Source: Gammaproteobacteria bacterium RIFCSPHIGHO2_12_FULL_45_12 (GTDB taxonomy: Bacteria; Pseudomonadota; Gammaproteobacteria; DSM-16500). Taken from it: a stretch of DNA of 55,195 nt. The stretch is from the NCBI GenBank assembly GCA_001801665.1, contig MGYH01000035.1, positions 1 to 55,195 of the forward strand, written 5' to 3'. This document shows positions 44,799 to 47,272 of this stretch, piece after piece. The notes below the pieces were generated by a model that saw nothing but the letters and a program-made list of their open reading frames with translations, was not told where the DNA came from and made no database searches. Made by a program: the position numbers and the translations under genes. Positions within the stretch are counted from its first letter, which is position 1; each line of letters starts with the position of its first letter.

Positions 44799-45032
44799 AT
44801 GAGAATGCGAAAAATCAATTTAGATGATTTAAAAAATTATTTACAGCCTTATCAGGAGCAAGGATTTTTGCCAAACGTGGCAGTTCCTCAAACAAAAAAC
44901 AATCTTCTGACGCACGCCATTTCAACCCTTCCTCTGGAAAAACTAAGCAAGGTAACCCGCAACGACAGCCTGATGAGCAACTGGTTAGACGTGTGGGGCA
45001 ATGTCTGGTCTAAATTCGGAGCAAGCACTTAA
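44799..45032 (+). CDS. Putative RiPP (triceptide-type) precursor peptide, 77 aa
   Basis: AAGGA RBS before ATG 44799; all three Trp in the C-terminal WLDV-WGNV-WSKF; directly upstream of the rSAM/SPASM gene. Confidence 0.8.
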   Translation: MRMRKINLDDLKNYLQPYQEQGFLPNVAVPQTKNNLLTHAISTLPLEKLSKVTRNDSLMSNWLDVWGNVWSKFGAST

Positions 45033-45176
45033 TTTTTCCAACGCATGATAGCGCATCTGCCGTGAGCGTTGCGCCTAACATGGCAAGAAAAGCTATTCGT
45101 CCTCTGAAGCGCAAGGCAACTGTCCAAAAACAGCCTCCAGAGGACAAACAGCCTAGTACATTGATTCACGTTATCA

Positions 45177-46415
45177 ATGATGATTTTCAAACGATTTGAA
45201 AAAATAGCCAATGTTCCGCAGACTCAACACTATTACTTAAACAGGTCATTCATGTTAACAAAACTACTCGTGCTACAGCCTCTTGATTTATGCAACTTGA
45301 ATTGCAGCTACTGTTATTTGCCTGGCAGAAGAAATACAAAACGGATGCCTCACCACATTTTAGCAGCCAGCTTGAAATTAATATTTAATCGTCCTTTTTC
45401 AGAGGACCCCCGTCGCCATGAAAAATTAAAAATTCTCTGGCATAGCGGCGAACCCCTGCTCGCTGGCATTCCATTTTTTAAAACCGCGCTTAAATTGATT
45501 CAGCAATATAATGTCCATCACATTCCAGTCAGCATGGAATTTCAAACCAATGCCACCCCCATCACACAAGCTTGGTGTGACTTTATTAAAGAGAATCATC
45601 TAAATGTCTCAGTTAGCATCGATGGTCCTGAATTTTTACACAATCGCTATCGTATAAACTGGCAAGGAAAAGGTTCTTTTAAGTTAGTCATGCGCGGCAT
45701 TCATCACCTTCAAAAAAATAACCTACCTCTGCGCGCTATTTGCGTGCTGACCAAAGACAGCCTCGATTATCCCGATGAAATTTATGATTTTTTTACAAAA
45801 ACCGGCTTTGAGTCTGTTTGTTTCAATGTGGAAGAACAAGAAGGCATCCACACTCACTCAACCATGAGCTTGCGTGAACAAGCTCCATCATCTGACATTC
45901 GATCAAAATATCAGTCATTCATGTCCATTTTTTATGACCGTTGGGCTCGCGATGACTTTCAACTGCATATCCGTGAGTTTAGCCATATTTTTGGCAACTT
46001 ATTATTTCAGAAACAAATGGGGGCCACCACCGGCTTAATCAGCGCTGAATCTCTTGCATTTAATATTCTCACTATCACCAAAGATGGTGACATCTCTACC
46101 TTTTCTCCCGAACTCTCAGGTGGCAGCAAAACCAATCCCAAACAATTTATCATTGGAAACGTCCTTGACATTACCAGCCTAGATGAATTAAAAATGCAGC
46201 CTAATTTTCTCTCTCAACTGCACGACATTAAACAAGGCGTCGAAAAATGTGCCAAAGAATGTGACTACTTCAACCTGTGTGGCGGGGGTTCAGCGTCTAA
46301 CAAATTTTTTGAAAACAGTGATTTTAACACGACTGAAACCTCCGTCTGCATTTTGTCCAAAAAAATATTAACTGACCTGATTATTCATAAATTACAAGAA
46401 AATCGCCTCCCATGA
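45177..46415 (+). CDS. Cyclophane-forming radical SAM/SPASM peptide maturase, GrrM/OscB-like (likely start 45252)
   Basis: LVLQP..CNLNCSYCYLP, WHSGEPL, QTNAT, VSIDGP, FNVEE, GDISTFSPEL, CAKECDYFNLCGGG.SNK...TETSVC. Confidence 0.88.
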   Translation: MMIFKRFEKIANVPQTQHYYLNRSFMLTKLLVLQPLDLCNLNCSYCYLPGRRNTKRMPHHILAASLKLIFNRPFSEDPRRHEKLKILWHSGEPLLAGIPFFKTALKLIQQYNVHHIPVSMEFQTNATPITQAWCDFIKENHLNVSVSIDGPEFLHNRYRINWQGKGSFKLVMRGIHHLQKNNLPLRAICVLTKDSLDYPDEIYDFFTKTGFESVCFNVEEQEGIHTHSTMSLREQAPSSDIRSKYQSFMSIFYDRWARDDFQLHIREFSHIFGNLLFQKQMGATTGLISAESLAFNILTITKDGDISTFSPELSGGSKTNPKQFIIGNVLDITSLDELKMQPNFLSQLHDIKQGVEKCAKECDYFNLCGGGSASNKFFENSDFNTTETSVCILSKKILTDLIIHKLQENRLP

Positions 46416-47272
46416 AAATTATCAAACAATTTGTCTCGCTTCGACTGTTTTTTCTGTGCCTCTGCTTGCCATGCTTATCCGCTCAGGCAATGACCGCGCA
46501 CTTAAATGCTGACTATACCATTCTACCTTTCAAGCTTCTGTATCAACTTCCTATTTTTACCTTACAGATTCAAGGTCACCGCATCCCTGCTTTCATTGAT
46601 CTTGGATCAAGCAACACCTGGATTGCTCTTAATCAATCACTCGCCAAAAACCTCGCTGTCACGGATGACAAGAAACAGACTTATTTTTTGCAAAATCGGT
46701 GTGGACAACGCTACCAAACAACGCTTGTGAGATTACCTGATGCGACGCTTGGCAGCGTCATCTTTACGCAAGTGCCCACCCTCATTTTTTCAGCGACGCC
46801 GGCTTGCAGCTTTTCATCCTCCGTCAAGAAGTTGGATCATTACGGCATCATTGGCACCAATCTATTAAAATCATTTCGCTTGATTCTGGATTACCCACAT
46901 CAACGTTTTGTGCTAGTGAAAAATCGCTTACCGAAACCTTATGCTAAGCTGCGCTGGATAGTGCTTCCCCTCAAGCAAACACCCGAGGGCAATATCAGCT
47001 CTCGCGTCCTGATTAATGGTCAGCCTGTCAATGCGGTATGGGATACGGGTGCGACAACGTCGGTGGTGAGCAAGGAATACGCGAGCGATGCAAAGCAACC
47101 TGAAAACAAGCTTCCGCTTAGCATCGCCAATCATGACTTTGGAAAGCTGGATTTCTATGTACTACCGCAAAATCACTCACCGTATGCGGCGTCTATCGGC
47201 AACAATTTCTTTGCGAACCACATTGTGCTGATTGATTTTAATCGGAACGAGCTTCGGATTGGACAGGCTTAA
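46412..47272 (+). CDS. Secreted two-domain retropepsin-like aspartyl protease
   Basis: Signal peptide ending SAQA; FIDLGS...GIIG and VWDTGA...SIG lobes; ATGA overlap with the rSAM gene. Confidence 0.8.
   Translation: MKIIKQFVSLRLFFLCLCLPCLSAQAMTAHLNADYTILPFKLLYQLPIFTLQIQGHRIPAFIDLGSSNTWIALNQSLAKNLAVTDDKKQTYFLQNRCGQRYQTTLVRLPDATLGSVIFTQVPTLIFSATPACSFSSSVKKLDHYGIIGTNLLKSFRLILDYPHQRFVLVKNRLPKPYAKLRWIVLPLKQTPEGNISSRVLINGQPVNAVWDTGATTSVVSKEYASDAKQPENKLPLSIANHDFGKLDFYVLPQNHSPYAASIGNNFFANHIVLIDFNRNELRIGQA

What the first reader, a model, noticed from the sequence alone, without database searches (positions are those of the whole stretch)
44799..47272. Candidate new triceptide-type RiPP cluster: (W-x-x-V/F)3 precursor, GrrM-like rSAM and secreted aspartyl protease
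Seen: a 77-aa ORF with a good RBS whose only three Trp residues fall at a 4-residue period in the C-terminus (W62-L-D, W66-G-N, W70-S-K), followed by a radical SAM/SPASM gene and an ATGA-coupled protease. Known: GrrM/OscB and related cyclophane synthases crosslink an aromatic residue to the beta-carbon of the residue two positions later (Omega1-X2-X3). This enzyme has GrrM-type motifs (QP..CNLxCxYCYLP, STFSPEL, C-terminal CxxxCxxxxxCGGG..SNK). Inference: the product is a peptide with up to three cyclophanes (W-D, W-N, W-K). The precursor lacks the Gly-rich repeats of classic GrrA, no transporter is adjacent, and the host looks Legionellales-like, so this may be an undescribed subfamily.
Basis: partly seen in the sequence, partly recalled or inferred. 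Interest (0 to 1): 0.9.

Follow-up and report, generated by a model that had tools for sequence, protein, structure and literature searches.

The report
Xenorceptide-like stapled-peptide gene trio
An uncultured environmental bacterium carries three linked genes: a short tryptophan-repeat peptide, a radical-SAM enzyme of a known family that likely staples it into small rings, and a likely secreted protease; this is an unnamed branch of a known peptide class, with a layout and core that resemble the xenorceptide antibiotics.

Summary
The radical SAM enzyme passes the GrrM/OscB cut-off (376 vs 310 bits) and fails XyeB, AmcB, FxsB and sulfatase-maturase cut-offs. It sits in an unnamed 18-member clade. 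All 5 other clade loci with DNA carry a small aromatic-rich ORF upstream. Eight precursors share a G-F/Y/L-x-P/A leader motif, and 7 of 8 have an aromatic-x3-aromatic-G/A-N/Q core. A complex model docks that leader motif on the enzyme's SPASM domain (0.86, best control 0.01). The likely product has up to three Trp-to-C-beta rings (WLD, WGN, WSK); the chemistry is untested. The peptide-enzyme-aspartic protease order copies the xye (xenorceptide) clusters, including the ATGA overlap, but the protease is no XyeC orthologue and no exporter is adjacent. The protease link is unproven: it is absent from the 5 sister loci, although an inverted GrrM relic lies beside a related protease in one relative. 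The scan has noted GrrM systems often (118 findings hold these words), one probably in this clade. Verdict: new variant of a known kind; a modest antibiotic lead.

The parts
44786..44790 (+). Shine-Dalgarno-like AAGGA upstream of the precursor
   Evidence: sequence
44799..45032 (+). Precursor peptide, 77 aa (P0001): leader of about 60 aa, core from about W62
44862..44873 (+). Conserved leader motif G22-F23-L24-P25; predicted docking site on the SPASM domain
   Evidence: alignment; lowest-error contacts
44982..45014 (+). Core WLDVWGNVWSK (W62-K72): three aromatic-x-x motifs at period 4; F73-G-A75 is a possible fourth
45033..45251 (+). 219-nt spacer with several hairpins (fold z = -2.1, weak); no terminator-like site called
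45252..46415 (+). GrrM/OscB-family radical SAM/SPASM enzyme, 387 aa (P0002); longest ORF starts at 45177
   Evidence: TIGR04261 376 > 310 bits
46412..47272 (+). Two-lobed (pepsin-like fold) aspartic protease, 286 aa (P0003), predicted signal peptide, D63 and D211 motifs; ATGA-coupled to the rSAM

Best explanation
These three genes likely form an operon for a triceptide-type modified peptide, in which the GrrM/OscB-family enzyme is predicted to grip the 77-aa precursor by its GFLP leader motif and likely staples up to three tryptophans to the beta-carbon two residues on (W62-D64, W66-N68, W70-K72). Shown: gene order, family of the enzyme, a precursor family that travels with one enzyme clade, the ATGA coupling. 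Predicted: leader residues 18-26 dock on enzyme residues 267-271 and 323-334, and core residues 69-75 also contact the enzyme. Inferred from OscB chemistry: SAM cleavage, H abstraction from C-beta of X3, C-C bond to the indole, -2 Da per ring. Least certain (about even odds): the protease, predicted to be exported, acts on the peptide after it leaves the cytoplasm, freeing or trimming a rigid 11-16-residue core. It appears to have been recruited independently of XyeC into a variable slot beside the enzyme. The export route is unknown.
For: TIGR04261 376 bits over cut-off 310; XyeB 87/450, AmcB 286/425, FxsB 116/370, sulfatase maturase 187/349. 18-member clade, FastTree support 0.992 (127 sequences), SH-aLRT 82 (53 sequences). 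5 of 5 other clade loci with DNA have an 81-99-aa aromatic-rich ORF directly upstream; 4 of 5 share the leader motif. Three further precursors found by profile, one with core FWEVWGNVWPN; P0145 and clade enzyme P0013 both list a 3517-bp contig, so they probably lie together. Core motif in 7 of 8 family precursors, shuffle rate 0.003-0.017 each (motif defined after seeing them). Complex score 0.86, best of 3 controls 0.01; this mark was reached by 116 of 157 solved complexes and 2 of 215 mismatched pairs (rough here); runs share at least 69% of contacts, partner pLDDT at least 58. OscB links Trp-C7 to C-beta of Asn or Asp (PMC11002830, passages). WSK is a proven ring for the XyeB enzyme SmcB (bioRxiv 2024.12.16.628070). 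Protease: both catalytic Asp motifs invariant in 5 of 5 aligned, pepsin-like fold, same size, order and ATGA overlap as XyeC. An inverted 40-codon GrrM-type relic abuts a related, stop-interrupted protease gene in G106 (33.9 bits, E 7e-8).
Against: No chemistry was tested. W-x-K is not among the OscB links listed. The complex pass may come from likeness to solved enzyme-peptide structures (ChlB entries exist), and the job carried ligands, unlike the calibration. The core motif also occurs upstream of 4 of 56 non-clade GrrM loci, so it is not clade-specific. Protease link: no profile hit beside 5 of 5 sister enzymes or in 46 of 46 non-clade GrrM-like loci with at least 1 kb downstream; 4 of 5 protease homologues in the order have no rSAM in the roughly 3.5-3.9 kb fetched; the relic is on the opposite strand and cannot be assigned to this clade (116 vs 115 for non-clade enzymes). 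The precursor has no signal peptide or double-glycine site and no exporter is adjacent, so peptide and protease may sit in different compartments. The one C39 transporter found belongs to another peptide cluster; the assembly is 72% complete.
Confidence: 0.75

Rival explanations
1. The peptide-enzyme pair is a real triceptide unit, but the protease is a passenger: a common secreted protease that landed behind the rSAM gene. The modified peptide would stay in the cell, or be processed by general peptidases, as a signal or ligand; in relatives an NB-ARC/TPR protein would read it. (Odds refer to the protease step only.)
For: No protease beside 5 of 5 sister enzymes. NB-ARC/TPR genes flank 3 of 5 (L021, L185, L190; FxSxx-TPR hits of 294 and 92 bits, under the 300 cut-off, for the two scanned). 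The protease family is widespread and stands alone in 4 of 5 loci in the order. Most rSAM-RiPP clusters are described as lacking proteases (PMC12957482, passage).
Against: ATGA coupling with no RBS-like site of its own; the relic beside a related protease in G106; the same order in xye clusters. This genome's locus has no NB-ARC/TPR neighbour.
Confidence: 0.4
2. The product is an exported antibacterial that inserts as a beta-strand at the BamA lateral gate, like xenorceptide A2, and the protease matures it or clears it from the producer's periplasm.
For: Core WLDVWGNVWSKF parallels SmcA core WVNAFARWSKSF, sharing period-4 first rings and WSK. Relative P0145 (WINNFGNWKN) has the xenorceptide type-A spacing. 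Same precursor-rSAM-aspartic protease order.
Against: The third ring is one residue further out. The tail is WSKF-GAST, not the conserved terminal W-T/S-K/R-S-F. Relatives end in varied tails, four of them 24-27 residues past the last ring motif. No HlyD/C39 exporter and no GG site. Xenorceptide A1 itself was weak or inactive. Enzyme is 23% identical to XyeB.
Confidence: 0.12
3. The enzyme acts on this peptide but with other chemistry: i,i+3 or i,i+4 links, ether or N-C links, or only one or two of the rings.
For: Period-4 spacing allows other pairings. Related enzymes make C-O and C-N links (PMC11002830). X3 varies across the family (D, N, K, Q, E, A, L). The model placed only residues 69-75 of the core with confidence.
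Against: Best family by 90 bits is GrrM/OscB, whose characterised links are i,i+2 C-C; DynA and DarE score 167 and 104. One family member has period-3 spacing, which fits i,i+2 units (P0142).
Confidence: 0.15
4. The small ORF is not the substrate; the enzyme is a sulfatase maturase or an orphan, and the cluster is incidental or decaying.
For: The best solved-structure sequence hit is a sulfatase maturase. Clade enzymes are patchy: 3 of 86 genomes in the order. One relative holds only a relic beside its protease.
Against: Sulfatase-maturase score is far under cut-off. All three genes are intact. Precursor homologues lie upstream in 4 of 5 sister loci and dock through the conserved motif.
Confidence: 0.04

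Closest known systems
GrrM/OscB triceptide maturases (TIGR04261) with GrrA/OscA precursors (TIGR04260)
   Same: Enzyme over the curated cut-off; STFSPEL and C-terminal four-Cys motifs; Trp-x-Asp and Trp-x-Asn motifs like OscB's substrates.
   Different: Precursor has no Gly-rich repeats and no TIGR04260 hit; it has its own leader motif and a W-x-K motif. Enzyme is 36% identical to a Nostoc GrrM and 42% to a Bacillus GrrM and forms its own clade. A protease follows.
XYE / xenorceptide clusters (XyeA TIGR04495, XyeB TIGR04496, XyeC aspartic protease, XyeD HlyD, XyeE C39-ABC)
   Same: Order precursor-rSAM-aspartic protease; protease of 286 vs 287 aa with hydrophobic N-terminus, two Asp motifs and a 4-nt ATGA overlap; HHalign 97.7% over 255 columns; three-ring core containing WSK.
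   Different: Enzyme fails XyeB (87 of 450 bits, 23% identity); no XyeA hit, no GG site, no D/E genes. Protease scores 10.6 bits against XyeC but 38-81 against stand-alone proteases of its own order and 41 against a Klebsiella plasmid protease; that control also gave 94.9% in HHalign. The likeness is at family level and probably convergent.
Fxs/Haa-type triceptide systems with NB-ARC/TPR partner (NF040586, NF041717)
   Same: 3 of 5 sister loci carry an NB-ARC/TPR gene next to the pair.
   Different: Absent from this locus; enzyme is not FxsB (116 of 370 bits).
AmcB multiple-cyclophane maturase (NF041718)
   Same: Second-best family; repeated aromatic-x-x motifs.
   Different: 286 bits, under the 425 cut-off.

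Membership tests
GrrM/OscB maturase (TIGR04261) | Score over curated cut-off 310 | tested here: met
   376 bits, profile 1-362 of 363
GrrM/OscB maturase (TIGR04261) | CxxxCxxC plus C-terminal SPASM cysteines | tested here: met
   C14/18/21 and C333/337/343/366
GrrM/OscB maturase (TIGR04261) | Groups with annotated GrrM, apart from XyeB and sulfatase maturases | tested here: met
   OscB itself was not in the trees
Triceptide class | Adjacent precursor with aromatic-X2-X3 motifs | tested here: met
   WLD, WGN, WSK; similar ORFs in 5 of 5 sister loci
Triceptide class | Aromatic-to-C-beta crosslink over three residues (definition in PMC11499958) | not testable with these tools
   needs LC-MS/MS and NMR
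GRRM system (GrrA/OscA precursor) | Gly-rich repeat precursor, TIGR04260 | tested here: not met
   no NCBIfam hit for P0001 or relatives
XYE / xenorceptide | XyeB enzyme over cut-off 450 | tested here: not met
   86.7 bits; 23% identity
XYE / xenorceptide | XyeA precursor with Gly-Gly cleavage site | tested here: not met
   no TIGR04495 hit; control XyeA scored 69; S-N precedes W62
XYE / xenorceptide | Aspartic protease gene directly after the rSAM | tested here: met
   same family and order, but not an orthologue
XYE / xenorceptide | HlyD and C39-ABC exporter in the cluster | tested here: not met
XYE / xenorceptide | Terminal W-T/S-K/R-S-F of type A cores | tested here: inconclusive
   WSKF followed by GAST; mature end unknown
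XYE / xenorceptide | Binding to BamA, Gram-negative killing | not testable with these tools
   the ringed product cannot be modelled or assayed here
Anaerobic sulfatase maturase (TIGR03942) | Score over 349 | tested here: not met
   186.7 bits
AmcB (NF041718), FxsB (TIGR04269), DynA, DarE | Score over each cut-off | tested here: not met
   286/425, 116/370, 167/450, 104/650

The most novel reading that the evidence does not exclude
A GrrM/OscB lineage has converged on the xenorceptide design, a three-ring WSK-bearing core plus a coupled secreted aspartic protease, and makes a new BamA-targeting antibiotic. Because no C39 peptidase is in the cluster, the protease would be the first aspartic protease shown to release or clear a radical-SAM peptide, which would also point to the role of XyeC.
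Probability: 0.12. Interest if true: 0.8.

Novelty: new variant of a known kind. Interest (0 to 1): 0.46.

Why it matters
It defines a small unnamed precursor family with a compact leader motif and a predicted docking site, in a barely explored group of environmental Gammaproteobacteria. It is a three-gene system that can be rebuilt in E. coli. Two open questions become testable: whether an OscB-type enzyme rings W-x-K, and what a secreted aspartic protease does in a cyclophane cluster. In xye clusters the characterised leader peptidase is the C39 domain (PMC12957482, passage), and no role for XyeC was found in the passages read. The core's likeness to xenorceptide A2 makes it a cheap, low-odds antibiotic lead.

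Tried and rejected
Word-index searches for the precursor and the protease returned only themselves. The DNA around the four closest enzymes (P0004-P0007) was not obtained. PhyH at 43740-44597 was considered as a tailoring hydroxylase, since a Nostoc grrM locus has one; rejected because it is divergent and 4 of 4 close homologues sit beside an amino-acid permease with no rSAM. XyeC orthology was rejected. Use of the C39 transporter on contig C20 is unlikely, as it has its own precursor. Class-wide draw: 4 of 401 genomes hit, 3 in the clade including this one; orders of G175, G055 and G054 added nothing. No XyeB over cut-off in 400 of 401 genomes scored. Promoter and terminator scans were at chance level. 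GC3 of the three genes is within the genome's range, so no sign of recent transfer. No RNA holder listed; the precursor core was not covered by the four runs laid. DotA search blank with a silent control. Literature searches: triceptide + aspartyl protease, 0 papers; XncC + protease, only the xenorceptide preprint was relevant; triceptide + precursor + Legionella, Aquicella + RiPP, and xenorceptide + protease + immunity gave nothing relevant by listing. 'Aquicella' was a guess from recall and is not tested.

Full report
Observation. The precursor is 77 aa with Trp only at 62, 66 and 70 and a good ribosome-binding site. The spacing arose in 202 of 200,000 shuffles, but the same pattern occurs 19 times in the six-frame translation of the assembly, so spacing alone proves little. 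The enzyme most likely starts at 45252, not 45177, because homologues align from there. The protease overlaps the enzyme's stop by ATGA, and contigs from two other studies cross that junction. The genome is a 72%-complete assembly of 1.3 Mb. Its class is inferred to be Gammaproteobacteria; the order was not established. The best-covering runs are groundwater and soil metagenomes.

The enzyme. It scores 376 bits on TIGR04261 (cut-off 310) and fails AmcB, sulfatase maturase, DynA, YhhB, FxsB, DarE and XyeB. A protein search listed 120 of 1810 hits, with about 22 standing above a plateau near 300 bits. Trees recover an 18-member clade: support 0.992 in FastTree on 127 sequences and SH-aLRT 82 in a fast IQ-TREE run on 53. 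OscB itself was not available for the trees. Clade enzymes are patchy: 3 of 86 genomes in the order; a fourth hit was another rSAM type.

The precursor family. DNA was obtained for 5 other clade members (L020, L021, L185, L189/L190, L192). All 5 have an 81-99-aa ORF directly upstream with an aromatic-rich C-terminal part. Four share a G-F/Y-L/Y-P leader motif; L192, on a long branch, does not. A profile of five precursors gave 9 hits in 1.84 billion representatives: four query members, one cluster-mate of a query, three new precursors and one spurious large protein. The new cores include FWEVWGNVWPN and WINNFGNWKNWSN. A core motif aromatic-x3-W/F-G/A-N/Q is in 7 of 8 family members (shuffle rates 0.003-0.017). 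It was defined after the fact and also occurs upstream of 4 of 56 non-clade GrrM-like loci, there without the leader motif. No NCBIfam model hits these peptides.

Binding model. Enzyme plus precursor, folded with SAM and two 4Fe-4S clusters, scored 0.86 against a best control of 0.01. That mark was reached by 116 of 157 solved complexes and 2 of 215 mismatched pairs; the counts are rough here because my own alignments and ligands were used. Runs shared at least 69% of contacts and partner pLDDT was at least 58. The lowest-error contacts join leader residues 18 and 21-26, the conserved motif, to enzyme residues 267-271 and 323-334. Core residues 69-75 also touch. The pass may reflect likeness to solved enzyme-peptide structures such as the ChlB entries. 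It supports binding; it does not show it.

Chemistry, inferred. Triceptides are defined by an aromatic-to-C-beta link on three-residue motifs (PMC11499958, parts 1-2 of 3 read). OscB links Trp-C7 to Asn or Asp and Phe to Asn (PMC11002830, passages). WLD and WGN fit this. WSK is outside that list but is a proven ring of the XyeB enzyme SmcB (bioRxiv 2024.12.16.628070, parts 1-3 of 9 and passages; supplements not seen). Up to three rings are expected, with FGA a possible fourth.

The protease. It has a hydrophobic N-terminus, two invariant Asp motifs (D63, D211) and a pepsin-like two-lobed fold (model pLDDT 71). The family is widespread. Xye clusters run precursor, rSAM, aspartic protease, HlyD, peptidase-transporter. 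In a Xenorhabdus cluster the third gene is 287 aa, overlaps xyeB by ATGA and aligns with our protease profile at 97.7% over 255 columns. An unrelated plasmid protease gave 94.9%, and pairwise P0003 scores 10.6 bits on XyeC against 38-81 on stand-alone proteases of its own order. The parallel is therefore at family level and probably convergent. Against a fixed link: no protease beside 5 of 5 sister enzymes or in 46 of 46 non-clade loci with 1 kb downstream, and 4 of 5 homologues in the order have no rSAM nearby. For a link: the coupling, and in G106 a 40-codon GrrM-type C-terminal relic (33.9 bits, E 7e-8) on the opposite strand, overlapping the start of a stop-interrupted protease homologue. 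The relic is not XyeB-like but cannot be assigned to this clade. Sister loci carry other partners: NB-ARC/TPR proteins in 3 of 5 and an unnamed oxygenase-like protein (label from recall) in 2 of 5. The neighbouring slot looks exchangeable.

Open problem. The precursor has no signal peptide or Gly-Gly site, and no exporter is adjacent. The only C39 transporter found serves another peptide cluster. An exported protease could reach the peptide only after export by an unlinked route or after lysis. I put the odds that it acts on the peptide at about one half. A 2026 paper states that a C39 peptidase had been the only protease characterised in radical-SAM RiPP biosynthesis (PMC12957482, passages), and a review of leader peptidases has 'aspart' only in one reference title (PMC10885120, passages).

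Function. The core resembles xenorceptide A2, which inserts at the BamA gate, and relative P0145 has the type-A spacing. But the third ring is shifted by one, the tail is not W-T/S-K/R-S-F, relatives have varied tails, and there is no exporter. I give the antibiotic reading 0.12. An intracellular signal is at least as plausible for the family, given the NB-ARC/TPR partners; PMC12912966 (passages) added only general triceptide context.

Novelty. The enzyme is a member of a known family; the precursor family, its leader motif and the xye-like order are not named in the libraries or found by the searches listed. Most subscription papers are missing from the library. About 3900 putative triceptide pathways have been catalogued, and the primary papers and supplements (Nguyen 2020, Sugiyama 2022, Ruel 2025) were seen only as titles in reference lists, so the family may already be tabulated there. 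Verdict: real, a new variant of a known kind, interest 0.46.

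Noticed in passing
G000 contig C20, about 3313-11701, minus strand: A second RiPP-like cluster in this genome: 53-aa precursor with a double-glycine-like leader, ATP-grasp-like 360-aa enzyme (label from sequence likeness, not scanned), 353-aa unknown, HlyD-like protein, C39-ABC and second ABC transporter, LuxR-like gene.
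   Followed up: partly
L200 1302-2238 (G106): Inverted GrrM C-terminal relic fused to the start of a protease gene broken by one stop; the same genome has an intact clade locus elsewhere.
   Followed up: yes
L185 47-8453 and L021 39-6969: Clade precursor and rSAM lie behind a very large protein with NB-ARC/TPR regions (in L185 fused to NRPS-like carrier and thioesterase-like parts) and ahead of a 273-281-aa unnamed protein; a similar-looking gene follows grrM in Nostoc.
   Followed up: partly
L205 1176-2655 (G289): XyeB-like rSAM (347 bits, under cut-off) with a 76-aa precursor containing WTKSTWGKS, a PAS/LuxR-like gene upstream and an adenylation-like gene downstream.
   Followed up: no
L208 937-3868 (G127): Two tandem XyeB-like rSAM genes behind a 71-aa Tyr/His/Lys-rich peptide.
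   Followed up: no
L194 4801-6125: Bacillus plasmid grrM with an unannotated 67-aa precursor holding WSD, WHD, WYK and FGD motifs.
   Followed up: no
L216 3989-4858: A Vibrio protease 38% identical to XyeC with no rSAM in 8.8 kb, so XyeC-type genes also stand alone.
   Followed up: partly
window 38304-41496: DNA cytosine methyltransferase-like gene in pieces (38682-39569 and 38304-38561) next to an HTH plus HipA-like pair (39845-41496); labels from sequence likeness.
   Followed up: no
window 42266-42505 and 53438-53892; 43600-43740 and 48184-48384: Repeated intergenic elements seen as near-identical short ORF translations; one also appears on contig C20.
   Followed up: no
window 48481-52153: Gene run resembling an FTR1/p19-type iron uptake operon (label from recall).
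   Followed up: no
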